A DNA stretch of 64,000 nt, from contig JADEYG010000007.1 in the NCBI GenBank assembly GCA_016906335.1, forward strand, positions 558,001 through 622,000, read 5' to 3'. The notes beneath the pieces were generated by a model. The model saw only the letters and a program-made list of their open reading frames with translations. It searched no databases and had not been told where the DNA came from. A program made the translations under genes and the position numbers. The stretch comes from Novakomyces olei (taxonomy: Eukaryota). Of this stretch, positions 7,324 through 43,834 are shown piece by piece. Numbering within the stretch: position 1 is the stretch's first letter; every line of letters begins with the position of its first letter.

Positions 7324-7929
7324 AGCACCTGGCCAACAAGTCTGCAAGTCAAATGATTTAATATTGACCAGACATGGATACTGTGACTTAATTGTTGATG
7401 GATGCGAAATGTTGAATGTAACGCAGTTTTGACACAATTTATGATAATAATCACACCAGCTAGATGCTGCTGCTAAATCTTTAAATTAGGGTTAGGTTCG
7501 GGCTTATTGCTTTAATTTCTCTATATTTTATTCTTTTTGAAGAAATTGGATTGGTTGAATCAGGCTATAGTGGGAATTATGGGGATATTTTCATAGCTAC
7601 AGTCATTGGAATAGCTTTGCTCTAGGTATAAACAGTTATTTTGAATTAGCTTTTGCCAAATTACAAAATAATCAAAAAGAAAACATAGTTTTACAAACAT
7701 CTGCTTGACTATTTACCAATACAAGTAAACACATAGGGTATCAAATGCAACGAGTAATTGAAAAACATACCGATAAGAAATAAAGCGCATATAACAATGA
7801 GCGTTGAAGCAAACCAAAGGTAAAAGAGTGGATATGTGGAAACAAGAAACAAAATTAGAAAAGCCAAGCAGCTAAAGTCAAAAAATAAAAATAAAAATAA
7901 ACCAAATCAGATTTTAATAAAATGCCAGT

Positions 7930-10058
7930 TCACCACCCTGCCTGATGGTATCCCGAGTCATCACGGAAAAAAATATTAGTATCAGCTACGATGGGTGTAT
8001 CTGGCTGTAATGCTGGGGCAGCAGTATTTGCACGTCGGGTAGACAATCTATTGCCATTAGGTGTAGCGGTCCCACTCGGCTGCTGTGACGAATTCTGTGA
8101 ACTGCCACCCGAACTATTGGGGAACTGAGAAATGCGCGCAAGATCGCCTCCTGCCGTATGTCGCCTTTTCAATACTGCAGACGGAACAAGTGTCTTTTGC
8201 TGACGTTCCCATAGCAAATTACGTCGGAGTGATTCGCTCAGTTCTGTTGCCAGCATGTTGCGTCGAGTTGTCCGAGGAGAATTATTATTTCCTCGCAACT
8301 CGCTTGATGAGGAGGCATTATTCCCTTGTCGATTTGTAGGGATGGAAAGTGTCACAGAATTCGGTGAACCATACATCTGCCGCTCAGAAGCAGTAGAAGA
8401 TGGTCGCCGAGTAGCTTTAGAGGGCTGTCTTTTTTGATGTGGCCGTTTCATGGAAATTGCATCCCGGCTACTATCACTGCTCTCCTCTTCTTCCGCCGTT
8501 GTTGGTACACTTTCCCGGTGTGTTGTTTTATGGCTGATACCAAAATCTGGATCTGCCCTATTGGGCCGAGACATGCGTTCACGATGATCCCGCTCGCGCT
8601 GTTCTTGCGATGCAACAAAGGCATCTTGCTCCGCTTCCCGGCGCAGTATTAAGTTTGATAGGACACTAGGCGGTCGTCGTAGACTCGCCTGCATGGGGAT
8701 ATGATTATCCCGTAAAAATTGGATCTCTGGCGGCGACGGTGAGGCTGATGCCCAGCTATCATCGTCGTCTGCTACGTCCTCGTAATCAGAGTCGTTTTCG
8801 TTTGAATCGTTCTTGGATTCATTGCTTTTAGTAGAACCGCTAGTGTCGGCAGAGTTCCTTTTTTGCAAAGAAGTTTTGCTTGCTGAGGTCATATGCAACT
8901 TTCTCATAGCACCAGACCCACGGTTACTATTATTATTCTTATTATTATTGCTATTACTTGCTTCACCTGAGCAAGACCCGTTCATCTTTGCTCGCGATTC
9001 GAGTGAGGAGTCTGACTCCTCCTCGTTGGGTGATTTATTTATGAAAAACATCCGCTTAGCCTGCTTTTCGCTTTGCTCTGATTGCATTCCGTCAATTTCT
9101 TCTAATTCATTTCTATTGCTAGAGCCGTCCATATCCTCCACGTCGGGCGATTCTGCCCTCGAGACTCCGTTTGTAGACTCTGCAGAGCTGAAATGAGCAT
9201 TATTGCGTCGCATAGACTCTGATTGCCGGAAAGAAGCGTCTGGATGGAATCCAAAGACAACGCTAGTTGTCCGATGCGGCTGAGGTCTCTGTGGAACTGC
9301 CTGAGCGTCTGACGCCGGCTCTCCCAGTTCCTTATTATTTCTTTTAGACTTTTGGCTAGCGTGTTCTGGCTCCATGCCTAGTCCAAGCCGGTCTGACTCG
9401 GGCAGACTTGTGCTTGTAGACTGTGCTGTTTCTGTACCAGCGTCAGCCGAGGTTGCATTTCTACTTTTATCTGCTGCTGCGGTACTGCAAGACATGTCCT
9501 TTTCACTGCATGACGGAGCAGAATGGTTTGCACGCAGTTGCCGTTGTCGCTGAGCCTTAAGAGTCGCCCAAGTATCCCGCTCCGCTCCTAAAGGTTTCAA
9601 ATCAGCGACCATACGTTGAAACTGGTCAGCTGTGATTGGCGCAGGTCGCTTTGGTAACGTATCCCCAACTGTTTCCGAATGCGCAGAGTCCGTGTCGGAA
9701 GAAGAACACGTGGATGAATAATCGTCATCCTCCGGATCTGAGGCGAAAGCGGTGGACGGACAAATATCGCCGTCTTTCTCCGTGGAGTGACGACGGGAAT
9801 GGGACCACCGAGTTTCGTCAAACAGATGTGCTTCGCGGTACCAGAGCCGCCAAGATAGATTTTCCAGTCGGGTTCCGTTCTCCAGACTGTCCTTGCATTT
9901 CGTGAAGACTATGGCTAATTAGAACACTAGAAAAAGGAACAAGAAGGTCACAGCAACGTACCATTCCACATGCACGATAAGTTGTCTGCGTCGATGTGAT
10001 GCAGTTTGGATATGTTGTCCACAGCTAAGCTGAGGACCGGGTCCGGCAGCGCATACAT
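7930..10058 (-). CDS. DUF1752 + DUF3295 protein (Mks1-like nitrogen/Ras-cAMP signalling regulator family)
   Basis: Exon 1 reads MYALPDPVLSL...MWN. After an intron at ~9911-9961 comes VFTKCKDSLENGTRLENLSWRLW (DUF1752), continuing in frame into ORF 7930-9612, which ends SPRTTRRNMLATELSESLRRNLLWERQQK...YHQAGW. Confidence 0.8.
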
Positions 10059-10923
10059 GGCTATGATGAATCAAACGATCGTGGATATTCCCATGTCATG
10101 GGTTTGTATTTTATATTTATATTAAATATATATATTCATATATTCATATATTATGGGCATTCATTTTGCCTATAACATTTCCTCTACAACACCCATATAT
10201 TGTAAAATTTTACTTTGACAGCTCCCCGTTAATATTTCGGGAGTTTGCACCAACACGTATGGATTTGGAAAGATAGGAAAGTACATTTTGGGAGTACATC
10301 ATCAAAACGGCATTTAGGGCCAAATTCGGGGACTCTGATTTGGTAATAGTTAATAGGGAAATTAGATCAGGGAACAAAAGAAATTAATCATCAAGGCTCT
10401 CTCGTAATCGCCGGCATCAATTATTCCATTCGCCATCCGTCCTGCCTGTGCAGTGATTGATGTTCTAGAGAACCGTACCATGTTCTACACACTAATTTCA
10501 TTGGTGCCCGTGTGCGTGTAGAACGCGCGGGCTGAATAATGTGGTCGGGACTCTTTTCCATAATAATAGAACAAACGTACGCTATAAACACGGTTTTATT
10601 ACTAAGCTAATTTATGGGACAAATCTATGCATACACTATTCATATGCCCAAGTATCGTTCCCAATGCATATGCAACCAACCTGAAATAGCCGAATATGAC
10701 CCGACGGTCGAGACTATTTTTCCGCCGAGCCGTAAACTTCTTGATCAAGTAATGCTATTGACCGGGCGGAAAGCTGCTGCTACATTGCACACTGCGTAAC
10801 ATTACGCTGTGCGTGGCACCCGACGCCGGTCTAGGCCGCTTATTATTCTAAGCGCACAGTATAGACGCTCATATTATGGCTGCACACCGTTAAAAACGCA
10901 ATTACCGCACGCTTCTTCTACCC

Positions 10924-10965
10924 CACACTAAGCGTGCCACACTAAGCGTGCCACACTAAGCGTGC
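10924..10965. repeat. 14-bp tandem repeat CACACTAAGCGTGC x3
   Basis: Three consecutive exact copies are visible in intergenic DNA. Confidence 0.9.
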
Positions 10966-11286
10966 GCCTCGAAACTTTAGTATCCCGCAGATTGGGATAT
11001 ATCGTATCCTCGGTTCTTTTATGCGGGGCAGAGCTGTCTGCTGCGATTCATTGTATGGCGGAGGCGGCAGCTTAATTTGGCCATACCGGATCCGGTATCG
11101 TAGACGCAGACTTATAATATGAATTCTATGATACTTACAGTAGGAATTTAGTATGCAACTATAAAGTCATTAAGCATTGCAGATCTGACGGCGTTATGGT
11201 ATAGAGCTGTCATTTATCTCCATTACGGGGGAAAGGGTGTTTATTCATTCTGACTATAATAAGTCTTGACCTTATAAATAGCATAC

Positions 11287-11975
11287 GGTCCAAAATCAAT
11301 TCAATAGTAAGCAAAGGGTTGTACTAAAACATAGGTCTATCTGCGCTCTGTTTCAGAAGAGGATTAAGTCGTAGATAAATTGAGTACCGCAGATACAAGA
11401 TGTCAATTCATAATTTTGCGCACTTGAAAATGTTGTATAACGGAACGCCGTTAATCAATACTCGCGAGCAAAATTCCAAATCTAGGATTGGGCTGGCTTA
11501 TCTAACCGGCGAACTTGTCTTGCAATATTCGTGACAGCTACTTTGGATCGCGCAGATCAAATGCTTGCTTATCATTGAACCATTACATCAGTCAAGGCCA
11601 CGTTTCAGCGGACAAAGTTAACCTTTTGGAAAAGGACCCTAAACGTAGAATTAAACCTGACTAAAAGCAGTTCGACCCTGATGATTATATTCCGCAAGAC
11701 CGATGCATTACTGAGGTATGTGTCATTGCCAAACACAGTGTTACGTATAAACACTACCTTTCCAGTCAACTATGAGGAACAAGTAGGGTTAGGGTTAATC
11801 GAAACGTCTTTGCCTGCTACACAAAAGAGAGCCTTACAGATTGAGCTGATATTGGGCCACATAGTCGGCTTGCTTTAGGATTGGAGGGAAATATCGTTAG
11901 GACATTATCGTCGTACCTAAATTACGTGCACTTTTAATCAAGCAATACTTTGACGCCTAATACCATTGAATAGCA
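11287..11975 (-). ncRNA. Candidate telomerase RNA (TER)
   Basis: Minus strand has template-like UUAACCCUAACCCUA (11784-11798). An Sm site GAUUUUGG (11290-11297) is followed 3 nt later by 5' splice site GUAUGC (11281-11286). The 5' and 3' ends pair (11961-11971 with 11299-11309), there are many nested helices, a TATATAA at 11987-11993, and no credible ORF. Confidence 0.6.
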
Positions 11976-12155
11976 CACGACCATAGTTATATACGTTAAA
12001 ATTCTACTACATGATTTACGAAACAAGCGTCTTAAACACGCTGAGGAGCGCAAAATGATACGAAGCGTTATCACATGCCACGAAATTTGTATAAACCCGT
12101 TGAAATTAGGTAAAGTCTTGACTACTTTTGTGACTATAGTGGACTGATCGCCTGT

Positions 12156-14220
12156 CTAAAACTGCGCGTCTTCTGTGCCAGATACAATCACATCGTTCAC
12201 CTTGAGGACCATGCGGTTCAGCTGCGTTGCAAGCAAAAACTGTTGCCGTTTTCCAATCAGCGGATCAATCACAAACTGTTCTGCCATATCTGCGTTGTTG
12301 TTAGAAAAGAACACAATACAAAATATAATTGATAATAAGTATTGCTGCAAAAGCTCCCGCTTTCAATTTTTAATTCAATTTATTGTCAATAATTCATTTT
12401 GTGTCTCAATTTTTGTCCGTATTATTTTTGTCCTTTCTTATTTTGTTTCAAGGTCTCTGATTTCTTACCGTTACTGCCCGTGCCCAGACAGTCAATACCG
12501 AGCCGACCCCGGCCACGTTTCTTATCCGAACCCGCTGCTACTTGCGCCGCCCGCACTTTTGCAACTGTCTCGATGGGCGGCAAACCCGAGTTCTCGGCCA
12601 GAGACATGGGTACTATATCAAGAGCACTAGAGAATGCCCTCAAAGCGTATTGCTCAATACCCGCAATCTGTCGTTTAGTTAAAGAAACTTAAAACAAAGT
12701 TATAAATACCTTGTCTGCCTCTTCTGCCACCGCAAGGGCGCATGCCAATTCTGCTGCTCCTCCGCCATACACAATACGGTTGTCCCTAACTATATTTCGT
12801 ACTACGCAAAGTGCATCGTGCAAGGCACGTTTAGCCTCATCAATAATCATTTTATTTGAGCCACGAATAAAACAAGTAGCTGCCTTGCTATTTGCACATT
12901 CTTCAACCACCAGCATACGATCACGTGTTGTTCCAAACGATATCTCGCGAACTACGCCAGCATGGCCCAACTTATCTGCTGTCAAATCCTCAAAACGTGG
13001 GACAATACGTGCGTTCGTAGCAATTGCCAAAAGCTCGATTTCCGGACCGCCGACCCAGCGGACCGCGGGCAGATTGTTTTGCAGCAATAAATGATTAGCC
13101 TCGTCATCAAAGCCCCACTGACAAATGACCAAGTTTGCACCAGTAGCCTTTACCGCCGCAATCATCTCTATAAACTTTTTGTGCTCGTACTCCTGCAAAG
13201 TGCGAAACTCTTCAACCGATGTGATATCCAGCTTATGCTTTGTTTTGGGCTTGGGTGGCTCAAATGGACACGTGAGGATTGCAATCTTGGCATCATGAAT
13301 TTCTCTAGGCATTTGCGGGTGCGACATGTCCTTGTCGATTACAACGCCACGAACTAGCCGTGAGTCTTCGAGTGCCCCACCTACTTTGCCGTCTACTTTG
13401 ATCAATTCAAAGTCCACATCTTTACGCTCCAGATCAGCCACGGAAAGCACCGCTTCTACTGCCATTTTGGCAAACTGATCGTGAGCTTTGGACACGACTT
13501 TGCTGCCTAGTGAAGTATAAGCCGCTCGCAGTAGGTTAGAAGTATCGTCTGTTGTGTAGGGAATTTCGTCCGAGATTGCATCGAGATTGCTCACGGCAAT
13601 ACGACACGCACGATCAAAGCCATCTGCGATACGGATGGGATGGATGCCACGCTCGATCAGCTCTTCAGCTTGAGCAAGTAAGGCTCCGGCGAGAACAACA
13701 ACGCCAGTGGTACCATCCCCGATTTCGTCGTCCTGCGAGCGTGAAAGTTCAACCAACAATTTCGCAATCTGATGCTCCACCTCCATTTTGCTCAGAATAG
13801 TGGCTCCGTCGTTCGTTACCGTGATATCACCGTCCGGCGAGATGAGGATTTTGTCCAGGCCTTCGTTATTAGTCACTTTGGAGGCAAAAAGATAGAGAGC
13901 AATCCAAACCATGGCCTGTCCGAGGAAAGGATTGGGAAACGAGACCATACCACGAGGACCTAAAGATGTCCGTACAATATTGGACACTGTCTTTGCGGCC
14001 AGAATATGCGATTTCACTGCTTCAATGCCGTGCATGCTAATGCACTGGTTAATTATGTTGCACTAAACACGAGGGAATACCGTTTCTTTTTGCCTTGGCT
14101 TTACATGGTTAGCTACAGCACTGGACACGTACAATCTTCGACTTACTCCCGTACGATGATGAAAGGGTTGCCTTGCTCATCACGCGCCATAACCGCATTA
14201 TCCAAATTCGGCGCGGCCAT
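12156..14220 (-). CDS. CCT5: T-complex protein 1 subunit epsilon
   Basis: [76 protein letters not shown]. About five introns. Confidence 0.97.
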
Positions 14221-14831
14221 TTTGCCGACTTGTAAGTTTGCTTTAGCCTAACCGGCGCGAAAGAAACTTTTGGTTCACAAGTCCACGATCAGCTTGAAGC
14301 TTTTTCGCCTCTTGTTTAAGTGTATATATAATTCGTGCCAGTAAAATATTAAATACAATAAAATCGAATTATAATACCAATCCAAGACGAACAATGCGTT
14401 GTTTAAAGAGCGAAAATTAAGATGTAAATATTAGGCAACTTTCACTCCAAAAATATCAAGTAATATTGTCTACTGTATATCGCTACTATTATATCGCTGC
14501 TATTATATCGTTGCTATTGTATTGCCCCTATTATATCGTTGCTCCTTAATATATTATTATTATTGTTGGTATACGCTTTCAGCAAGTAAGGCAACGCTGC
14601 TCCCTCATATAAACAAAAGCGAATAGCCAGCCAGCCGCTGAACAGCGCGCGCGAGATTACAGGATTTTTGCCGGCAGCATTGAGTGCATTGCGTGCTTGA
14701 TATCAGTGGCTTTTTGCTTTGCAATTTTTCTTTGATCGGTGCGTTAATTAGAAGGGCTTTTGTCTAATATTTACCAGCTTCGCAAGGTTAATTACCAAGA
14801 CTTCTCGATTTGATCTGTTTTCCAAGCGAAG

Positions 14832-15718
14832 ATGAGCGGCGCGAACAAGAACGACGAGCAAGTCGTTGGGGGTAAGCGGTGTTGAGTATATAGGAATTTC
14901 CTCTATATTTGTGCTTTTGCCCCGTAGTCTTCCTTTTGGGCCGCACTTGTTTTGATCGCTTTTTACTGCCGCCGTGTTTAGGCTCATGAGGGGTTTATCG
15001 AACTACTGAATGCTAAAAGTTGGGATAGAAAGTGACGGGGAGAGTGATATTTATAACGTCGAAGCTATTGTCGGGCATCGAATCAATAAAGTATGCATCT
15101 TTCAAGAGATCTAGACCCTTGCTAACTCTGTAGTCAAAGCATGGATTTGACTTTTTGATTAAATGGGAAGGTTACGATAATCCTGAGGATAATTCGTGGA
15201 CACCGCAAGAGGATTGCACGTAAGCTTTTTACGCGAATCCAGTGAGAAAGCTAACCATTGGTTCTGTAGTGGATGCGAAGATTTGATCGAGAAATACTGG
15301 GAGTCAATTGGTGGGCGCCCGACGCTGCCGTCGCAAAAGGCAGCCAAGCGTGGAAGAAGCTCTACGCCTGATTCATCTCGCAAAACCAAATCAGCAAGAA
15401 CCAGCAGCGGCAGAATTGCTGAGAAGGAGGATAAATCGGTAGCGGCCAAAGGCACCGAAGAACGTGCTTGGAAGCCACCGCTGGACAAGTCTAATTGGGA
15501 GACGTTGGTAAATCAGATAGAGACTGTTGAGCGGACGGAAGAGGGCTCGCTTTCAGTTTACATAGAGTGGAAAAATGGCCGTCACTCCGTCCACGACTCT
15601 CATATCGTCTATGACCGTTGTCCCAAGAAGGTATTTATACTTTTGCTATTACCGTTTACACTAACATTTTTGATTCTAGATGTGCAAATTTTTCGAGTCA
15701 CATCTTGTGTTCAAATAA
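14832..15718 (+). CDS. HP1/Swi6-family chromodomain + chromoshadow protein
   Basis: Spliced chromodomain (YNVEAIVGHR / FLIKWEGYDNPEDNSWTP), basic hinge, and chromoshadow domain (WETLVNQIETVER...CPKK/MCKFFESHLVF). Four introns. Confidence 0.88.
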
Positions 15719-17020
15719 GTCTGAATCGCTTTGCTTTCTTCTGCAGTAAATAACGGCAAAAGAGCGAGGTGTTTTATAATTTAACGAGTTTCCAATGCAC
15801 CGGTTCAACAGCGGCTGTTTCTAATTGAGAGTATATTAGTGTCCAGCTTTGCCACGTTGGCGTGCGCTAAAATTGCTACTGCTCAGAGATCTATTTAAAC
15901 GTATGCGGCCTAACCCGGGCTCACAAGACGATTGAATCTATCCTTTAAAAATATTTGCTTACCTATGGTTATCCTTGCCTTCTTCCATCTGCAGTGTGTA
16001 TATATATGAATATATATATATATATATGTATATTCTTTCCTTGTATATAGAAGCGTACACAGGACACACATGTGGGAATTTAAATGAGAATTGTACGTGA
16101 CCAGCGGGATGCTTACTTTGTAATACATTACGTACACTATACTCATTTCACAAGTAATGCCAAACCTCAAACTGAGAGAAAAGGAAAAAATATAAGAGCG
16201 ACTAGTTTCTTTTCGCAGAGCTGTTTGGGTCATTTACACTTGTTATTGTAGCACCCTGAGCATCGCTCTTGCGCTCGCTGTATACAACAAGCAGCTACGA
16301 TTCCACGTAGATGATATAGTAGTTTAGGACGCGTCGGACCTCGTGCGCCATGCCCGTTATACTAGTGCTAAGCTTATACGTGACTAGAGTGAAAAATTTA
16401 AAACCGATTATATTTTACATGATAATTACTTCAAAAAAAGGCAAGAATAGCAGATATTAAAAAAAAATTCTCTAGCGTGTTATAAATAAAGGTCGACTTC
16501 CGCCCCCCGAAACGCGGGCAAAATCTGCACGTACAGATACTTGGTTATACGCCTCCAATTTCAAGTAACACTGTCGCCAGAATATTAGAATAATATTCTG
16601 ATATCGCGCATTCCCCTTTTGGTAGGTATGTTTACAGGAAACAGGTCTATTTATTAAAGACGCGAGACCTATCGGCACATTAAGCATGAGAGCAATGAAC
16701 TAACGCGTTGTAGTGACCTGTCGCGTTCGCGCTGATTACGGTTGAATTGCGGCGCTTTCATTTATAAAGGCGAGAACCAAAAGGAAAAAGGAAATTCATG
16801 GTGAGATGGTGGGAGAGCTGAATGCCTGTAACATTATGTATAATTTTGGAAATCGTGACTGAAATGGATCGCATGTTTTCATCACGAGCATATTACAAAA
16901 TCGAGCATTGCCGTTTCACAGATCGGGTTTGAAAATTACCAGCAAATATTTTGTATTTGCCTCTACCTGCCAGCTTGCATTTGTGTCGAAAGTTTTTGGT
17001 ACGTTTGTATACACTGCATT

Positions 17021-19678
17021 ATGTCTACTCGACTAGACCGGCTAGTTTTGCTGTTAGACACTGGGTCTACACAAGTCGTGCGTGATACGGCGGCTCAGCA
17101 GTTGGCGGATATCCAAAAATCACACCCTGATGATCTATACAATCTGCTCACCCGCGTTGTACCGTACTTACGATCAAAAACTTGGGAGACGAGGACAAGC
17201 GCGGGCAAAGCAATTGCTGGGATTGTACAAAACGTTCCACAGTGGGACCCTAATGCGCACGGTGCAGACGATACTGCTGCCAACAGGTTGGCGACAGCAA
17301 AAAAAGAGCGGGACAATGAAGTAGTGGAGCCAAAAATAAAGCCAAGCTCGCAGAACGGAAAAGAAGAGCCACAGGATGGCAGAGCGGGCAGTGTTGACGT
17401 CAAGAGCGAAACAATAGTGAAGTCGGAGGATTTACGGGACGGCGAGTATGATAAACTCAGCACTGCGGAACAAGCAAATGGTGAGGGCACGTCTGCAGAC
17501 TCAGAACCCGGCGACAGTCTGCCTACAATTACAGTGGAAAGCACGAATGGCAGCCTGAAAAATCGGCAGGCTCTTCTTTCTCTGTCTTTGCTGAGTATGG
17601 AGACGGTCATTACTAAAGGCAAACGGCTCCTGGGCAGCGCTGGTAAAGAATACGAAGTATCAATGTCGGACATGACTCCAGCAGAGCGTGTAGCCCTGCA
17701 GAAACGTAACCTAACCAGCCGGCTTGGCCTCGTGGGCGAGTACATGGACGAGGACGTGATTGACGAGCTGGCGTCTGCGCCCACGGCAACAACTCCAGGC
17801 CTTGACCCCTCAACGGCAGCAGTAAAACAGCAGGACCCGGCCACATCTTCGTCCTCCTCCTTACTGTCTCCGAAAACTGAGCCTGACAGGTCTCCATCGC
17901 CGAGAGAGCCTTCGCCCGGTAAGGAAGACACGTCTGCCTTTGCCGGAGTCAGTGCTCGGCAGCGAAATGCGCTCAAGCGAAAAGCAAAACTTTCAGCCAA
18001 AACTTGTCAGAGCAAAGTACGGGTCGTTGACTTTTCGCCCTCCGATGCAGGAAAATCGCCTGCCGTTGAGGCACGAGAAAAGCCGGTGCAAGGCTCCAAG
18101 GACTACTTTTCCCAGTCACCACAGTCAAACCAGTCTGTTGAACAAGACAAAAAAGCCAAGCTTGTTGTGGAGCACAAGTCTCCACAACCCTCGGGGCCGG
18201 TAGTCAGATCTTCGGAGAACGGGCATGATTGGCCGTTTAAAGGGCTGGTAGATTTGCTTGAAGTAGAGATGTTTGATCCGCAGTGGGAAGTCCGGCACGG
18301 AGCGTGCTTGGGTCTTCGAGATATAATTAAATTCCATGGCCCTGGAGCCGGCCGGGTCGTTGGAGCGTCTAAAGCGCAGAACGACAAGTCCAACTTGGAC
18401 TGGCTTGAAGACATTGCGTGTAGAATCCTGTGTATATTTGCGCTCGACAGTTTTGGGGATTACTTGGCGGACCAGGTAGTGGCGCCTATCCGTGAATCTG
18501 CTGCTCAGGTGCTTGGAGCCTTGCTTTTGCATGTGCCCTCTGCCAGTGTAAAGCTTATATTTGGCCACTTGTGTGCGCTTGTCTTCCAGCCTTGGGTCCC
18601 ACAGGGCCGGAGGGTATGGGAGGCGTGCCATGGAGGAGCTCTCGGCTTGAAATACGTGGTGGCCGTTCAGCCGGGCGTAGTATTTGCCGATGCTGGGCTT
18701 CAGATTGGCGCTGTAAATGCGGTCATTGAGGGACTGGCTCACGAGGACGATGACGTTCGTGCTGTTTCTGCGGATACGCTATTGCCCATGGTGGACACGC
18801 TGGCCCAAAGTGGGGACAGTGTACTCCTGCGCCGAGTCATTAATGTTTTATGGGACTGTTTGGCTGATGTGAGGGACGATTTGAGTGCCAGCACGGGGAG
18901 TGTAATGGACGTACTGGCAAAATTTTTCGAGTACGATAGTACGATTGCCCTCATGAGGGGTAGTAGACAGGGAAAAGCAGAAACTAGTGAAAATCTTGAA
19001 AGTGCAAATCTTGAAAGGACAAATTTTGAAAAGACAAATCTTGAAAAGACAAATCTTGAAAAGACAAATCTTGAAAGTGCAAATCTTGAAAGGACAAATT
19101 TTGAAAAGACAAATCTTGAAAAGACAAACCTTGAAAAGACAAATGTTGAAAAGACAAATGTTGAAAAGACAAATGTTGAAAATACAAATGTTGAAAAGAC
19201 AAACTTTGAAAAGACAAATCTTGAAAAGACAAATCTTGAAAAGACAAATCTTGAAAATACAAATTTCGAGACACTATCGTTTGTGTCGCTAGTTCCCAGA
19301 CTCTTCCCCCTGCTTCGTCATACGATTCTGTCTGTGCGCATGTCGGTGATCAGAGCGCTGCTCACGTTTGTGAGTGTCGGCAAGCAAGGTGATGGAGACT
19401 TTACGTCGTGGATAAATGGCCATGTCCTTCAGCTGATTTACCAGAATATATACCTTGAGCAAAACGTGGCAGTCCGCTCACAGAGCCTGGAGCTCTGGTG
19501 GTCCATGACTGAGCGACTAAGCAGTACTGATCTTGCTGCCTGGCTGCAGCCTCGTCTAGAGCGAATGACCCGTCTGCTTCTTGTTCCGATCGGCATTGCT
19601 CGCCGCAGTTATGCTGTCGACAAGTCTCTGCTTGTCTCTGCCCAAGACGAACCTTTCCAAGGCAGTTTTAATACTGGC

Positions 19679-19709
<31 letters not shown>

Positions 19710-22700
19710 CTTTACAACACGCTTATTCGCCCGATATTCCCGTGCTTGCTGGCGATGTTGAGCTGGTCGGGCTGGACAATCTACTGGCAATGCGAGTAGC
19801 GGCCGCTAAATCTCTAGGCCGGGCTATTGCGAAAATGCCTCCGCCTTTTTCCTGCGACTGTATAACGCAGTCGGCAGATCTGATGCTTGGCCAGCAAGTG
19901 CCCTCGTCCACGGCAATGCTGCTGTCCGGCTTTTTGCTGCAGAGCTGGGCCACCAGCTGTGCCCGGGCCGAGTGCTCTGCCACTATCGACCACCTGTACA
20001 CGCAAGTCCAGGCCCGGCTGTCGGAAATGGCCACGGGCCCCGTGTCCTACTCCAACTTGAGCCCGCAAATGGTCGTTGTGCGTGCACAGACGAGTGCTCT
20101 GCTCCATGCCTTTGTGGACGTGGGCAAACTGCCGGCAGACTGCTTGCCTGCTCTGCCAACACAGGTAGAGCAGGTTCGACAAGGAGGAGCAAAAAATGAA
20201 AGTGAACCAGTTTTTGATCTAGACTGTGCCAAAAGAATTATCGGGGACTCTGTTTATGGAGCGCTTAAAGGCCGAGTCGGCTCAGCACAGTCGAGAAAGG
20301 CACTCGAGTCAGCGAAGCAGGGAGTCAGCGATGCCGTTTTGGCGATGGAAAGTATTCAAAAGGCCAGCGATGTCCGTATTGCCGCGAGCCTGGTGGCAGC
20401 GAGTCTCGCCTTGCTGGGCGATAAACTGCCCAAGAAGCTGAACGGCATAATAAAGGCACTTATGGACAGTGTCAAAGGCGAAACTATAGACTTTTTGCAG
20501 GACGAATCGGCGGCCACTGTCACTGACCTGACGGGTCTCTGTCTCGAGCGGAACCGGTCGGGAGTGGCGGACAAGCTGGTCACTAACCTTGGAGCCTTTT
20601 ACTGTATGGACACGGCAGAAACGCCCGAGTTTTACCGATCGAGATCCGTCCTGTCCGAGGCAATTACCCTGCGACTCGGGGACAGCGAACAAAAGGACAA
20701 GGCCAATGATCAGGCCAATGACCAGGCATCGACAGTTAAAGGCCAAGAGGCCTCGTTGAGACGGAGGGGTGCCTTGAAGGCACTCTGCCGAATGTGCACA
20801 GCCTTTGGCGCTTTACTGTTTGAGCGAGTACCGAAACTAGAGACGCTGCTCTTTGCAGCAGACGGACTGCTTACCACCTTTAATGCCAAAGAAGCTCTTC
20901 TCCCCGAGAGCACTACGGGCCAAGAAATAATAGACGCTCTCTCCCTCTTTCGTGCACTGTGCCCTCACCTGTCTCCTGAACTGCACACTACCATTCTGCG
21001 CCATACTTTTAGCATTCTACTGGCGCTAGAAAACCCTTACTCTATGATTAGGTTTGCGGGAGCCAAACTGATGGCGGCACTGTGTGCCGCTATCCCCATT
21101 GAGGCAATGCGCACAGTCGTAATGGACTTGCTGCCGAGGCTGAATGACGCAGCCAATGCACAAAGGCGCCAAGGAGCAATGGAGTGTGTCTTGCATATTG
21201 TAGACTGCCTGCAGGAGAGGGTACTGCCGTATGTAATCTTCTTTATAGTCCCGACACTGGGCCGAATGAGCGATTCCGATGCGGACACAAGGTCCCTCGC
21301 TACAGCCGCCTTTGCCACTCTCGTCAAACTCGTGCCCCTCGAGTCTGGGATCCCCGACCCGCCTGGGTTCTCCGAGGCAATGCTCGCTGGCAGAGCAAAA
21401 GAGAGGGCCTTTATTGCACAGATGCTGGACCCGAGCAAGATCGAGCACTACCATATCCCCGTGGATATAAGGGCAGAGCTGAGGCACTACCAGCAGGAGG
21501 GAGTCAACTGGCTCGCCTTCTTGAACCGTTACCAGCTGCACGGCATTCTGTGTGACGATATGGGCCTCGGCAAGACTCTGCAGAGTATCTGCATAATGGC
21601 CTCGGACCACTACTACCGTGCCCTCCGGCACAGCGAGTCGCCTTCGCCAGAGACGGCTGCTATTCCGTCTCTCGTCATTTGCCCTCCCACGCTCGTGGGC
21701 CATTGGGCTATGGAGATTGAGCGCTACGCTCCCCGACTCTCCTGCTTGGCCTACGTGGGCCCGCCCACGGAGCGGCAGGGTCTGCGCCGGCAGCTAGAGT
21801 CGCATGATGTCATTGTTACTTCGTACGAAGTGTGCCGGGCGGATGCGCTAGAGTTTGCCAGGCACAGCTTCAACTATTGCATCCTGGACGAGGGCCATGT
21901 AATCAAAAACTCAAAGTCAAAGCTGACACAGAGCGTTAAACTGCTGCGCTCGAACCACAGGGTCATTCTGTCGGGGACACCGATACAGAACAATGTGCTG
22001 GAGCTCTGGTCGCTGTTTGATTTTCTTATGCCGGGGTTCTTGGGCACTGAACGCATGTTCTACGAACGCTACGCCAAGCCAATTGCCGCCAGCAGGGACG
22101 GTAAGAGTACAGTGAAGGAACAGGAGAGGGGGGCTCTAGCGCTTGAAGCCCTCCACAAACAGGTGCTTCCTTTCTTGCTGCGCCGGTTGAAGGAGGACGT
22201 GCTGGACGATCTGCCGCCCAAGATTATACAGGACTACTATTGCGATATGAGTCCCTTGCAAAAGCGGTTGTATGACGATTTCGTACAGAGCCAGAGTCTG
22301 CAGGAAAGTGACAGTGGTGGTGGTAACGCTGTAGCGCAAAAGAAACACATCTTTCAGGCACTGCAGTATATGAGGAAACTGTGCAACCATCCTGCCCTTG
22401 TCATCAACGCAAAGCACCCGCAGTACTCTGCCATTTTGGCAGAATTGAAAAGGCAAAACTCGTCCTTGCGAGCGCTTGAACACGCGCCCAAACTGGACGC
22501 TCTTCGTGAGCTCTTGCTCGACTGCAACATTGGCGTATCCGACCCGAAATCGCTGCTCTCTGACGTGGTTGTTAGGGAGCACAGAGTGCTGATTTTCTGC
22601 CAGCACAAGGATATGCTGGATATGGTGGAGAAGGATCTCTTGCAGTCGCAAATGCCCTCTGTCACATACTTGCGCTTGGACGGAAGCGTTGAGAGCCGTC

Positions 22701-23239
22701 GGCGCCAAGATGTAGTACAAAAGTTTAATGCTGACCCTTCTATCGACGTTCTGCTGCTGACTACACACGTGGGCGGCCTCGGGCTCAACCTGACTGGCGC
22801 AGATACGGTTATATTTGTAGAACACGACTGGAACCCCATGAATGATCTGCAAGCAATGGACAGGGCTCACCGGATCGGCCAGAAAAAGGTTGTAAACGTT
22901 TACCGTTTGATTACCCGAGGGACATTGGAGGAGAAGATTATGGGGCTGCAGCGATTCAAAATGAATGTGGCCAACACTGTCGTGAATCAGCAAAATGCCG
23001 GGCTCAATACTATGGATACGGCACAGATATTCGATCTCTTTGAGACCGACAAGACGGCTACTGCTGCCGGCGCCACTGGCAAATCTGGAGACATGGCCGA
23101 GGCACACTTGGACGCCCAGGGCCGGCCGATCACGAAGAAGGGCGGATCAAATATTCTGGATAACCTGGGCGAACTATGGGACGATTCCCAGTATGATGAT
23201 TACAATCTCGATGGGTTCATCTCGACCCTCAAGAAATGA
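17021..23239 (+). CDS. MOT1: TBP-associated SNF2-family ATPase Mot1 (BTAF1)
   Basis: MSTRLDRLVLLLDTGS, WEVRHGA, HEAT region, LRHYQQEGVNWL, GILCDDMGLGKTLQ, ILDEGH, TTHVGGLGLNLTGAD, QAMDRAHRIGQ. Confidence 0.98.
18991..19272 (+). repeat. In-frame 15-bp coding minisatellite in MOT1, ~19 units encoding (T/A)N(L/F/V)E(K/R/S/N)
   Basis: Consensus AAATCTTGAAAAGAC repeated, with a 75-bp higher-order duplication at the start. Confidence 0.95.
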
Positions 23240-27563: not shown

Positions 27564-28186
27564 TGGTACTCTAAAGTCGGTGGATATCTGGCGTCTGCGC
27601 GTTTAGTTTGTTTTTTGGTAAAAGGTTTGGGTCTGTCTGGTAAATTTCTAGCTGTAAGATCGGGCGCATCGTGTATTAATGGAATTTAATGAATCATCGG
27701 CTTAGCGATAAACTCATTATTCGGCCATAAACACCAAGTCCAAGATCCATAAAAGCGTTTGCAATATGATTCAATTACAAACCTTTCGATCATTAGCAAT
27801 CAAGATTTTGAAATGATTAGTCTAGCTTTGATTCTATAGGGTTAACTATGGAGATCAATGAGAAGACTTTAACACCTCTATAAGTCGCACAAAGGGAACA
27901 TTAACCCTAACCACAAGCTCTTGTACTTGTTATCTCGAATCTGCTCAGCAATATTAGGAGAAGTAGCATCACTAGGCACCACTTGATTAATATATATATA
28001 TATATTTTTTTTATTCATCCGTTTATTTTTTTGTTAATTTGTTAATTTATTAATTTATATCATTTATATTCATTCATATTTGTATCTTATTATTGCTACA
28101 AACACAAGTCTAAAGTCATATTCACTCATCCTATAACACATTAAACATGCAAAAATCCATCAATCGCAGCTCTTCACTTTGAAGCT

Positions 28187-42134: not shown

Positions 42135-43329
42135 TCATTCTTTCAGTACATATCCAAGAGAATCGGGATCACAAGCAGCCAGAGGAGCAATGTTTTCTTT
42201 CATGCGCAAAACATAAGGCCTTTCCTCGGCAATTTTTTCACATAAAGCAGCAAAAGGCTTTTGTGCCAAAAATCTAAGATTGTGTTGGACAATATTGTGT
42301 GCACGGGCCTTGCTGTAGCCCATACAGGCATGCAAAGTAACCCGGCGAGGGCTAATTCCGTAGGATCCACGATGCAAAATGTTATTGTGATAAAATACGG
42401 TTTGACCTGCTCGCAGATGTACGACTTCTTCCCCAGGCATCGGATCACGAGGCCGTTCAAGAGTGATTTCCCGCTCTTCCGGAGTACGTGCACGCAAATG
42501 TGAGCCGGGAATTGCAATCAGACAAGAATCATCGTATAGAGCTGTATTCCATTGAGTACCACAGCTAGAAATTTGCAATTGCTTCACCTCCTCTTCCGAC
42601 TCTGTTTCTGGAGCGATAGAATCACGATGCCAGTTCAAGGAGAAGGCGGACTTCTCTGGATTTACCAGCATGTTGAATATTTCTAGACGATCAGAAACAG
42701 AAGTATGGATGATAAGAACCACTAGTAAAAAAAAAAGAGCACAAATAGAGCTAGAAGGCTGTGCAAGGCAATCGTTAAAAGCAAACAAGTTCGGTCGTAA
42801 ACGACCTTTTAATGGCTAAATGAGCCTTCCAGTCGGCATACCCAGCTGCAGTTTCTCCGCAGGCACATCAAGAATCTGTGATACTGCCGATACAATTTCA
42901 GGCGACGTATACCATTCGAGAAAAATGCTTGCATCCGGATTTTGTCTATGATCGATTAGCTGGCCGTACATTCAAAAAGGTGGCAGGTCTCGAGAGCTGA
43001 AAGCATCAACAGTTCGGCTCGAAAATAAAGAAGAAATTAGAGAGGCAAATATTATATAATTTTTAAAAGAAAAAGCATCACGAAACATCATCAACGTACG
43101 GGTCAAGAAGCCGCTGTACACCCCAGATATCGGAAGCGTCTTCTGGTCTCCAAGGGGGAAATTGTTTGCCCACTACACGAACATCAGTCCATTCGAGACG
43201 GCGAGCGCGTTCAAGTACACGATCGGCCGCAGCTCGTAGTTGATCAAAACGTTCTCCCGCCACAAGGCCGTCAACAATGACGTATCCGTACCTGCGCAAA
43301 TGCTCCAGATCTACCTGCACACCTGTCAT
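42135..43329 (-). CDS. Phytanoyl-CoA dioxygenase (PhyH)-like 2OG-Fe(II) oxygenase
   Basis: LRRYGYVIVDG, WHRD (HxD), L.AGQTVFYHNNILHRG, R.TLH. Three exons. Confidence 0.8.
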
Positions 43330-43834
43330 GATTTGGATTCTGTGTGACAGGCGTCAGGCGAGGCTCTTATTTATCGTTCTATCTCTTGTGTAACCAGCCC
43401 ACGTTTCGATGATGCTTATCCCGCGGACAATAAATTGCTTCTCAATGGCGGCAAGTAGTATGTATTATCTTATGGGGATAGAGTTACTAAAAAGTAACGG
43501 CCGTGCAAGATTTGAATTTGGTCGCTGCATTAAATAGAATTATTATAGCCCAAAACAGACCCTAACCCTAGCAAAGTTGCTTCTGCCAGAGGCAAATACT
43601 GGGAAACATGTGTGCAGTTGTTTAATGAGATGTAGCACGAGCATTGGCTGTATCTTACAATCATAAAGGCAATGGTGTTAAAATGCTTTCTACATTACTA
43701 TTCCAAGGAAACTGACACGTCACAGCCAGGTGCTGTTGCTAGACATAATATTGCATTGCAATTTATATGTACAAGCACAGCGCTCTCGGAACCACAAGAT
43801 ACCATGTTTTCGCTTGACCTAGATCATTCTGCCC

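What the first reader, a model, noticed from the sequence alone, without database searches (positions are those of the whole stretch)
11281..11993. Candidate telomerase RNA gene (~690 nt, minus strand) between CCT5 and the Mks1-like gene
Seen, 5'->3' on the minus strand: TATATAA (11993-11987); a 5' strand 11971-11961 pairing 11/11 (one G-U) with 11309-11299 to close the molecule; a core-enclosing-like helix (11844-11834 with 11413-11403); a hairpin just before the template (11828-11807, template-boundary-like); template-like UUAACCCUAACCCUA (11798-11784), complementary to TTAGGG repeats; a three-way junction (~11760-11715); a long arm closed by 11700-11687 with 11528-11517; a possible pseudoknot (UUCGC ~11513-11509 with GCGAG 11465-11461, interleaved with AAUUUUGC 11475-11468 with GCAAAAUU 11419-11412); a distal helix (11395-11388 with 11345-11338); then an Sm site and a 5' splice site. 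Established: this order of elements is the conserved fungal TER core, and TERs are poorly conserved and usually unannotated. Inference: this is the organism's TER, and a short one for a fungus. Caveats: TTAGGG boxes also occur in promoters here; the template match (~2.3 repeats) is longer than typical; no clear U-rich triple-helix strand or P6.1 was identified.
Basis: partly seen in the sequence, partly recalled or inferred. Interest (0 to 1): 0.85.

Follow-up and report, generated by a model that had tools for sequence, protein, structure and literature searches.

The report
Telomere-repeat box; telomerase RNA unproven
A 14-base stretch matching the telomere repeat lies in a gene-free gap of a fungal genome; it may be the template of the telomerase RNA, but similar boxes recur nearby and the proposed RNA folds are no better than chance.

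Summary
The structural case does not hold. The 695-nt fold is no more stable than shuffles (z +1.17). An 11-bp stack appears in 23 of 100 shuffles. The template-boundary hairpin is weaker than shuffles. A pseudoknot search gives no excess, no P6/P6.1 junction was found, the template is not predicted accessible, and Rfam matches nothing. The window also holds three more telomere-like boxes of 11-12 nt (eight 11-mer hits against 0.18 expected), two of them 163 and 230 nt upstream of likely start codons. The candidate contains AGGGTTAGGGTT, the published minimal site for fission-yeast Teb1. Three results favour a telomerase RNA: Sm plus 5' splice-site pairs are rare (3 in 128 kb of strand); the gap is ORF-free; and 2 of 29 fungal metagenome loci carry a conserved AACCCTAACCCT on the CCT5 strand 0.7-1.0 kb after the CCT5 stop. 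No genome, RNA reads or close relatives were available. My odds are: Teb1/Tbf1-type site without a TER about 0.5, genuine TER about 0.33.

The parts
11784..11797 (-). Telomere-like box UAACCCUAACCCUA (plus strand TAGGGTTAGGGTTA). It is either a putative TER template or a Teb1/Tbf1-type double-repeat site, and it contains AGGGTTAGGGTT.
   Evidence: minimal Teb1 site from passages of PMC4839565
11987..11993 (-). TATATAA, 190 nt upstream of the box and 163 nt after the CCT5 stop
11290..11297 (-). Sm-site-like GAUUUUGG
   Evidence: 30 such sites in 128 kb of strand, 3 of them followed by a 5' splice-site-like hexamer within 30 nt
11281..11286 (-). 5' splice-site-like GUAUGC, 3 nt after the Sm-like site
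11126..11173 (-). Branch-point-like UUAAU (11173-11169) and UACUAAA (11153-11147), with AG dinucleotides at 11160-11159, 11135-11134 and 11127-11126. These could complete an intron after 11286.
   Evidence: an intron of the CCT5 gene here has ACUAAAC just before its 3' end
11412..11475 (-). Irregular hairpin closed by AAUUUUGC/GCAAAAUU, the only local element with a marginal stability signal
   Evidence: z -1.99, 10 of 200 shuffles fold as well
11338..11395 (-). 8-bp helix UAUCUGCG/CGCAGAUA enclosing two small hairpins (three-way-junction-like), 41 nt upstream of the Sm-like site
   Evidence: z -0.69, not significant
10233..10285 (-). Alternative, Aspergillus-like 3' end for a longer RNA of about 1.7 kb: a pyrimidine-rich stretch (ACUUUCCUAUCUUUCC), AUACGU (10260-10255), then UUAAC
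   Evidence: motif types from passages of PMC3603654 and section 4 of PMC4299874
12156..14035 (-). CCT5-like chaperonin gene (upstream neighbour, same strand); the main ORF starts at 14035 and further upstream exons were not examined
7930..10058 (-). DUF3295 / LENLSWRLW-motif gene (downstream neighbour, same strand)
7486..7496 (+). Second telomere-like box (TTAGGGTTAGG), 163 nt upstream of the likely ATG (7323) of a GST_C_6 gene on the minus strand
27902..27912 (+). Third box (TAACCCTAACC), between two convergent ORFs
43559..43570 (+). Fourth box (ACCCTAACCCTA), 230 nt upstream of the ATG at 43329 of a minus-strand ORF

Best explanation
The 14-nt element is most likely one member of a family of double telomere-repeat boxes scattered through this genome's intergenic DNA. 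Such boxes are binding sites for a Myb-type TTAGGG-binding factor of the Teb1/Tbf1/Tay1 kind, which in ascomycetes acts at promoters and in internal chromosome regions. On this reading the factor binds the box in the nucleosome-free stretch between the 3' end of CCT5 and the long upstream region of the DUF3295 gene. It may drive or delimit an unannotated transcript there. The 'TER architecture' around the box is over-reading of helices that any AT-rich 700-nt sequence offers. Shown: the family of boxes, the exact match to the published minimal Teb1 site, and the chance level of the helices. Inferred: that a factor binds, and what it does.
For: The window has four boxes of 11 nt or more (11, 14, 11 and 12 nt), giving eight 11-mer hits against 0.18 expected. 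Two of the other three lie 163 and 230 nt upstream of likely start codons. All four lie 265-434 nt after the end of an ORF. The candidate contains AGGGTTAGGGTT, which passages of PMC4839565 give as the minimal Teb1p recognition sequence and as a promoter element in S. pombe. At most one box per genome can be the TER template. The structural evidence for a TER is at chance: MFE z +1.17; an 11-bp stack in 23 of 100 shuffles; 1 pseudoknot candidate against a mean of 3.7 in shuffles; boundary hairpin z +1.18; no upstream partner for the template's 5' flank (37% of shuffles do as well); template accessibility at the 43rd-57th percentile; no Rfam hit. A long gap upstream of the DUF3295 gene also exists in locus L004 (3.2 kb) with no telomeric 7-mer at all, so the gap needs no TER to explain it.
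Against: This box is 1.7 kb from the next annotated start codon, unlike the two promoter-proximal boxes. It is the longest of the four. A canonical Sm-like site with an adjacent 5' splice-site-like hexamer lies 490 nt downstream on the same strand; only 3 such pairs occur in 128 kb of strand, which gives roughly a 3-4% chance in the available 1.7 kb. Two metagenome loci (L017, L020) carry a conserved box on the CCT5 strand downstream of CCT5, in genomes where such boxes are otherwise rare. No binding factor or binding data were examined.
Confidence: 0.5

Rival explanations
1. It is the telomerase RNA gene. A Pol II transcript starts shortly after the TATA box at 11993-11987 and uses UAACCCUAACCCUA (or part of it) as the template for TTAGGG repeats. 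Its 3' end is made by Sm binding at GAUUUUGG plus first-step spliceosomal cleavage at GUAUGC, as in fission yeast, giving an RNA of about 0.65-0.7 kb. Alternatively it runs on to the pyrimidine tract plus AUACGU at 10260, as in Aspergillus, giving about 1.7 kb.
For: A 14-nt perfect telomeric match on the correct strand. A 2.1-kb gap without ORF homology: 10 stop-to-stop ORFs scanned, none reaching a Pfam cut-off. TATA upstream. Sm plus 5' splice site is rare, 3 in 128 kb of strand, and is followed by branch-point-like and AG signals of the kind seen in this organism's introns. 2 of the 29 metagenome loci examined (out of 80 fetched) carry GCCCCAACCCTAACCCT on the CCT5 strand, 984 and 678 nt after the CCT5 stop, in regions without a convincing ORF, and this is the only alignable island between them. 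CCT5-DUF3295 adjacency is itself ancient, being shared with L004. The 3'-end motif types match published fungal TERs.
Against: About one box per 16 kb in this window makes the prior for any single box very low. No boundary helix abuts the template. There is no pseudoknot above chance. The strict P6.1 pattern (4 bp plus NUNGN) occurs only at 11483 and 10492, in neither case with an adjacent P6, although P6/P6.1 and the U-rich pseudoknot are reported as conserved in Pezizomycotina and Taphrinomycotina. Fold stability and template accessibility are unremarkable. Rfam finds nothing. The 14-nt match exceeds the 'no more than two repeats' stated in PMC3603654. The proposed closing-helix 5' strand (11971-11961) lies only 16-26 nt after the TATA box, probably upstream of the transcription start (my own knowledge). 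L017 and L020 sit inside a Pezizomycotina-like clade that excludes the window, lack the otherwise conserved upstream neighbour of CCT5, and their flanks are not significantly similar (p = 0.17), so their box is not proven to be a TER or orthologous. L004 keeps the synteny but has no telomeric motif in the gap.
Confidence: 0.33
2. The box is a promoter element for an unannotated, non-telomerase Pol II transcript on the minus strand: either a long non-coding RNA or a long intron-bearing 5' leader of the DUF3295 gene. GUAUGC at 11286 is then an ordinary 5' splice site, and its neighbour GAUUUUGG is coincidence.
For: The other boxes lie 163-230 nt upstream of start codons. A TATA-like AUAUAA lies about 95 nt downstream of the box. 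A complete set of intron-like signals follows. The DUF3295 homologue in L004 also has a 3.2-kb upstream gap. A perfect 14-bp x 3.1 tandem repeat at 10923-10965 resembles a regulatory array.
Against: There is no transcript evidence of any kind. An Sm-like site 3 nt before a splice site is unusual: 3 pairs in 128 kb of strand, this one included. A 5' leader of about 1.6 kb would be long for a fungus.
Confidence: 0.1
3. It is a chance match or a relic interstitial telomeric sequence with no function.
For: No direct evidence for function exists here, and the structural tests are at chance level.
Against: A 14-mer is expected 0.003 times in the window, and boxes are about 40-fold over-represented at 11 nt, which argues for selection on the family.
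Confidence: 0.05

Closest known systems
Schizosaccharomyces pombe TER1 and other fission-yeast TERs (PMC4299874, section 4 read; PMC3592445, sections read)
   Same: Pol II-type setting. [quoted passage not shown]
   Different: Those TERs are 1,213-1,291 nt and have a demonstrated pseudoknot and a P6/P6.1 junction. Here the RNA would be about 0.7 kb, and none of these folds could be found above chance. None of the described step-2 blocks was recognised at the candidate splice site: the 5' splice site is neither GUCAGU nor AUAAGU, and the S. pombe branch-site and distance features were not scored.
Pezizomycotina TERs (Neurospora crassa 2,049 nt; Aspergillus; PMC3592445 and PMC3603654)
   Same: TTAGGG-type template. 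The alternative long model ends with a pyrimidine-rich stretch, then AUACGU and a UUAAC branch point, like the AUA(A/C)GU ends of Aspergillus TERs. A P6.1-like hairpin (10492) lies about 230 nt before that end, comparable to N. crassa (P6.1 near nt 1854 of 2049).
   Different: No adjacent P6, no conserved pseudoknot and no boundary helix 2 nt from the template. The CCT5 tree and best identities of 75-77% place the organism outside the Pezizomycotina-like clade.
Teb1p/Tbf1p sites, such as the S. pombe histone-promoter HisBox AGGGTTAGGGTT (PMC4839565, passages read)
   Same: The candidate contains exactly AGGGTTAGGGTT. Boxes of about two repeats recur in intergenic DNA, and two of them are promoter-proximal.
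   Different: This box is 1.7 kb from the next annotated start codon. No factor, ChIP or expression data exist for this organism.
Ustilago maydis TER processed from the 3' UTR of the Emi1 mRNA (PMC9564094, abstract and passages read)
   Same: The template-bearing sequence lies directly downstream of a protein-coding gene, on the same strand, here and in L017 and L020.
   Different: A TATA box lies between the CCT5 stop and the box. No evidence of read-through was available. In L017 and L020 the distance from the stop is 0.7-1.0 kb.

Membership tests
Fungal telomerase RNA (non-budding-yeast ascomycete type) | Template complementary to more than one telomere repeat, on the transcribed strand | tested here: met
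   UAACCCUAACCCUA at 11797-11784. Its length (2.3 repeats) exceeds the 'no more than two' stated in PMC3603654.
Fungal telomerase RNA (non-budding-yeast ascomycete type) | Template matches the organism's own telomere repeat | not testable with these tools
   No genome is held, and the window contains no chromosome end.
Fungal telomerase RNA (non-budding-yeast ascomycete type) | [quoted passage not shown] | tested here: not met
   The nearest hairpin ends 8 nt upstream, at -2.6 kcal/mol and z +1.18. The best duplex of the 5' flank with upstream sequence is matched by 37% of shuffles.
Fungal telomerase RNA (non-budding-yeast ascomycete type) | Pseudoknot with a U-rich loop and U-A-rich helix (triple helix) downstream of the template | tested here: inconclusive
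My descriptor search found 1 candidate in the short model (shuffle mean 3.7; 79% of shuffles have at least one) and 9 in the long model (mean 8.9).
Fungal telomerase RNA (non-budding-yeast ascomycete type) | Distal P6/P6.1 element (4-bp P6.1 with loop NUNGN, joined to P6) | tested here: not met
   Two strict P6.1-like hairpins in 2.16 kb (11483 AGAU-UUGGA-AUUU; 10492 GUGU-GUAGA-ACAU), neither with an adjacent P6. Such hairpins occur about once per 1.8 kb in the sequences scanned. The published covariance model was not available.
Fungal telomerase RNA (non-budding-yeast ascomycete type) | 3'-end module: Sm (or Sm-like) site plus 5' splice site, branch point and 3' splice site | tested here: met
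   GAUUUUGG 11297-11290, GUAUGC 11286-11281, UUAAU and UACUAAA, then AG. This is motif-level evidence only.
Fungal telomerase RNA (non-budding-yeast ascomycete type) | Match to curated telomerase RNA covariance models | tested here: not met
   No telomerase family matched at E up to 10 in 9000-14500 or 10000-12200, and none at gathering score in the whole window. I do not know which fungal TER families Rfam 15 holds.
Fungal telomerase RNA (non-budding-yeast ascomycete type) | Conservation and covariation in orthologous loci | tested here: inconclusive
   No relative closer than about 80% CCT5 identity was found. 2 of 29 loci have a box downstream of CCT5. L004 keeps CCT5-DUF3295 synteny without any telomeric motif.
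Fungal telomerase RNA (non-budding-yeast ascomycete type) | Expressed, TMG-capped, TERT-bound RNA | not testable with these tools
   No RNA holder was listed, so no reads could be laid.
Teb1/Tbf1-type double TTAGGG box | Contains about two telomeric repeats in the form AGGGTTAGGGTT | tested here: met
   The plus strand 11784-11797 reads TAGGGTTAGGGTTA. The minimal site is taken from passages of PMC4839565.
Teb1/Tbf1-type double TTAGGG box | Recurs at internal, mostly intergenic or promoter positions in the same genome | tested here: met
   Four boxes of 11 nt or more in 64 kb, all between ORFs, two of them 163-230 nt upstream of likely ATGs.
Teb1/Tbf1-type double TTAGGG box | Promoter-proximal to a regulated gene | tested here: not met
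   The next annotated ATG on either strand is 1.7 kb away.
Teb1/Tbf1-type double TTAGGG box | Bound by the factor in vivo or in vitro | not testable with these tools
   No binding data exist, and the factor's gene was not looked for because no genome is held.

The most novel reading that the evidence does not exclude
The locus encodes an unusually small (about 0.65-0.7 kb) telomerase RNA of a deep-branching ascomycete. It keeps the Sm/spliceosomal-cleavage 3' end but lacks a canonical P6/P6.1 and a boundary helix. It sits in an ancient CCT5-TER linkage that also survives in one Pezizomycotina clade (L017, L020). In the boldest form it is released from read-through CCT5 transcripts, as the Ustilago TER is released from the Emi1 mRNA.
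Probability: 0.12. Interest if true: 0.7.

Novelty: new member of a known kind. Interest (0 to 1): 0.35.

Why it matters
Telomerase RNAs evolve so fast that they remain unannotated in most fungal lineages. A TER from a lineage equidistant from Taphrinomycotina, early Saccharomycotina and Pezizomycetes would help reconstruct the ancestral fungal TER and its 3'-end processing. The opposite outcome is also useful. It shows that in genomes rich in Teb1/Tbf1-type double-repeat boxes, a template-like motif plus hand-drawn helices is not enough to call a TER. It also points to a dense family of such boxes lying 265-434 nt behind ORF ends, which may mark promoters or gene boundaries.

Tried and rejected
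- **Whole genome:** none is held, so chromosome ends, TERT and competing TER loci could not be checked.
- **RNA evidence:** no RNA holder was listed for 9600-12400, so no reads were laid.
- **Rfam:** nothing relevant in the region at E up to 10, in the whole window at gathering score, or in L017 plus L020 at E up to 1. An attempt to query a remembered Rfam accession against the records behind L017 and L020 failed because those records are not held.
- **Relatives:** the metagenome scan with CCT5 gave no locus above about 80% identity. blastn of the window's gap against all 80 loci gave only low-complexity hits in L061.
- **L017 against L020:** nothing is alignable beyond a box island of about 20 nt. 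A P6.1-like hairpin at L017 14164 does not fold into a junction. L017 has no Sm-like site downstream of CCT5; L020 has two weak matches (GAUUUUG, AAUUUGG), neither followed directly by a splice-site-like hexamer.
- **L017/L020 helix:** a consensus GGGC/GCCC helix abuts the template in both, but all four pairs are invariant.
- **Coding potential of the gap:** 10 stop-to-stop ORFs scanned, with only two sub-threshold Pfam hits (E 0.047 and 0.014).
- **Other scans:** no tRNAs in the window. The bacterial-type promoter/terminator scan is not informative for a eukaryote.
- **Literature on a CCT5-TER linkage:** one search ('telomerase RNA', 'CCT5', 'synteny', 'fungi', at least 3 of 4 terms) listed no paper containing CCT5 among the 10 shown. 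This does not show that such a linkage is unpublished.
- **Supplements:** closed, so the P6/P6.1 and pseudoknot alignments of PMC3592445, which would allow a proper model search, could not be seen.

Full report
**What is there.**
On the minus strand a CCT5-like chaperonin gene (Pfam Cpn60_TCP1, E 1e-130) ends with TAG at 12158-12156. A DUF3295 gene with the LENLSWRLW motif starts at 10058. The 2.1-kb gap between them holds no ORF with family support: I scanned 10 stop-to-stop ORFs and found only two sub-threshold hits. In the gap, on the same strand, lie:
- TATATAA (11993-11987);
- UUAACCCUAACCCUA (11798-11784), of which 14 nt are perfectly telomeric;
- GAUUUUGG (11297-11290);
- GUAUGC (11286-11281), followed by UUAAU, UACUAAA and several AG dinucleotides.

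The sequence-level observation is therefore confirmed.

**Are the folds more than chance?**
No.
- The 695-nt molecule folds at -161.7 kcal/mol against -169.8 +/- 7.0 for shuffles (z +1.17; 17 of 20 shuffles fold at least as well).
- A stack as long as the 11-bp 'closing' helix occurs in 23 of 100 dinucleotide shuffles. Stacks of 9 bp or more number 2 against 4.0 expected.
- The one result pointing the other way is an excess of stacks of 8 bp or more: 22 against 12.4 +/- 3.5, reached by 0 of 100 shuffles.
- The boundary hairpin is weaker than shuffles (z +1.18). The small junction after the template (z -0.82) and the distal junction (z -0.69) are unremarkable. Only the hairpin 11480-11408 reaches z -1.99, matched by 10 of 200 shuffles.
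- The 24 nt just 5' of the template have no better upstream partner than 37% of shuffled controls.
- A descriptor search for H-type pseudoknots with a U-containing first loop and a U-A run in stem 2 gave 1 hit (shuffle mean 3.7) in the short model and 9 (mean 8.9) in the long model.
- A strict P6.1 pattern (4 bp, loop NUNGN) occurs at 11483 and 10492, in neither case next to a P6 hairpin.
- Predicted accessibility of the template is at the 43rd-57th percentile of all 14-nt windows.
- Rfam gives nothing.

Qi et al. report that the U-rich pseudoknot and P6/P6.1 are conserved across Pezizomycotina and Taphrinomycotina, in the order template, pseudoknot, distal junction (PMC3592445, sections 13, 18, 19 and 23 and further passages read).

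**The box is not alone.**
The window holds four telomere-like boxes of 11 nt or more: 7486-7496, 11784-11797, 27902-27912 and 43559-43570. That amounts to eight 11-mer hits against 0.18 expected.
- Two of the other three lie 163 and 230 nt upstream of likely start codons of minus-strand genes.
- The third lies between convergent ORFs.
- All four lie 265-434 nt behind the end of an ORF.

The candidate contains AGGGTTAGGGTT. Passages of PMC4839565 give this as the minimal recognition sequence of S. pombe Teb1p and as an element of histone promoters. The same paper notes that Tbf1p binds TTAGGG-like repeats and acts as a transcription factor.

At about one box per 16 kb, a genome of this kind would hold on the order of a thousand boxes, my extrapolation from one window. 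Only one of them can be the TER template. This is the main reason for caution.

**What still favours a TER.**
1. Sm-like sites followed within 30 nt by a 5' splice-site-like hexamer are rare: 3 in 128 kb of strand, this one included. The chance of one in the 1.7 kb after the box is about 3-4%. A CCT5 intron here has an ACUAAAC-type branch point, so the UACUAAA after 11286 is plausible. Sm plus spliceosomal cleavage is the published 3'-end route of fission-yeast, Candida and Aspergillus TERs (PMC4299874 section 4; PMC3603654 passages).
2. The gap gives room for a long RNA.
3. There is a parallel elsewhere. Of 80 metagenome loci fetched with the CCT5 protein, I examined the 29 with at least 443 nt after the match. 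Two of these (L017 and L020, 97% identical to each other in CCT5) carry GCCCCAACCCTAACCCT on the CCT5 strand, 984 and 678 nt after the stop, in regions without convincing ORFs. In the remaining 294.5 kb of those 29 loci there is no telomeric 11-mer and only six 9-mer sites.
4. CCT5-DUF3295 adjacency is itself old: locus L004 has the same order and strand with a 3.2-kb gap.

**Limits of the parallel.**
- L017 and L020 sit inside a tight Pezizomycotina-like clade in a CCT5 tree of 78 loci plus the window (2 loci dropped for coverage under 85%). The window branches outside that clade.
- The window's best named relatives are Nadsonia (77%), Lipomyces (about 76%), Saitoella (75%) and Pezizomycetes (76-77%), apart from one partial hit at 80% over 73% of the query (Verticillium).
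- The flanks of the L017 and L020 box are not significantly similar (upstream 150 nt, p = 0.17).
- Their consensus GGGC/GCCC helix next to the template does not vary.
- They lack the divergent upstream neighbour of CCT5 that the window shares with 11 other loci.
- L004, which keeps the synteny, has not a single telomeric 7-mer in its gap.

The parallel raises the odds of a TER, in my judgement by a factor of a few, but does not establish orthology.

**Weighing.**
I started from about 1 in 1,000 per box. I then applied rough likelihood ratios:
- room for a long RNA, about 12;
- the Sm/splice module, about 12;
- TATA, about 2;
- the CCT5 parallel, about 3;
- failure to find the structural hallmarks, about 0.5.

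The result is odds near 0.4, that is about 0.3, with a plausible range of 0.15-0.7. These ratios are my estimates, not tool outputs.

The complementary reading is a Teb1/Tbf1-type site, possibly serving an unannotated transcript. It is the likelier single reading at about 0.5, plus about 0.1 for the ordinary-transcript variant.

**Size and ends if it is a TER.**
The short model (about 11960 to about 11290) gives 0.65-0.7 kb, well below the 1.2-2.4 kb of the fission-yeast and filamentous ascomycete TERs in the papers read. The proposed closing-helix strand 11971-11961 lies only 16-26 nt after the TATA box, probably before the transcription start (my own knowledge). A long model ending at a pyrimidine tract plus AUACGU (10260) plus UUAAC would be about 1.7 kb and Aspergillus-like. 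It places a P6.1-like hairpin (10492) about 230 nt before the end. Neither model is supported over the other.

**Verdict.**
The motifs are real. The RNA architecture is not supported. The TER call is possible but unproven. Transcript mapping, a whole-genome search with the published P6/P6.1 and pseudoknot models, and the orthologous gaps of close relatives would decide it.

Noticed in passing
window 7486-7496, 27902-27912, 43559-43570 (plus 11784-11797): A family of telomere-like double-repeat boxes, about one per 16 kb. All lie 265-434 nt behind an ORF end, and two lie 163-230 nt upstream of likely start codons. Shorter 8-9-mers occur at 15909, 25895, 27837, 31371, 32134, 38093 and 48646.
   Followed up: partly
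window 10923-10965: A perfect tandem repeat of a 14-bp unit (CCACACTAAGCGTG, 3.1 copies) in the gap, about 0.9 kb upstream of the DUF3295 start. It may be a regulatory array.
   Followed up: no
L017 12597-12618; L020 8313-8334: A conserved island (A/T)TGCCCCAACCCTAACCCT, 678-984 nt after the CCT5 stop on the same strand, in two metagenome fungal contigs whose flanks are otherwise unalignable. These are candidate TER templates of that clade.
   Followed up: partly
L004 11544-14746: CCT5 is followed on the same strand by a DUF3295 gene after a 3.2-kb gap, as in the window, but the gap has no telomeric 7-mer. The gene adjacency is therefore ancient.
   Followed up: partly
window 15193-15750 (+): An ORF divergent from CCT5 has homologues in the same divergent position upstream of CCT5 in 11 metagenome loci, but not in L017, L020 or L004.
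   Followed up: no
window 12290-12467 (-): The last CCT5 intron is unusually long (about 178 nt) and AT-rich compared with the 42-50-nt introns seen elsewhere in the window.
   Followed up: no
window 17021-23239 (+): A 2,072-aa Mot1/BTAF1-like protein (DUF3535, SNF2, Helicase_C) also matches the Pentapeptide-repeat family at residues 658-690, which is unexpected for this protein type.
   Followed up: no
window 12689-14035 (-): The CCT5 protein has no full-length named hit above 77% identity. Its best named hits are spread over Saccharomycotina, Taphrinomycotina, Pezizomycetes and Orbiliomycetes. The organism appears to be an isolated deep ascomycete lineage.
   Followed up: partly
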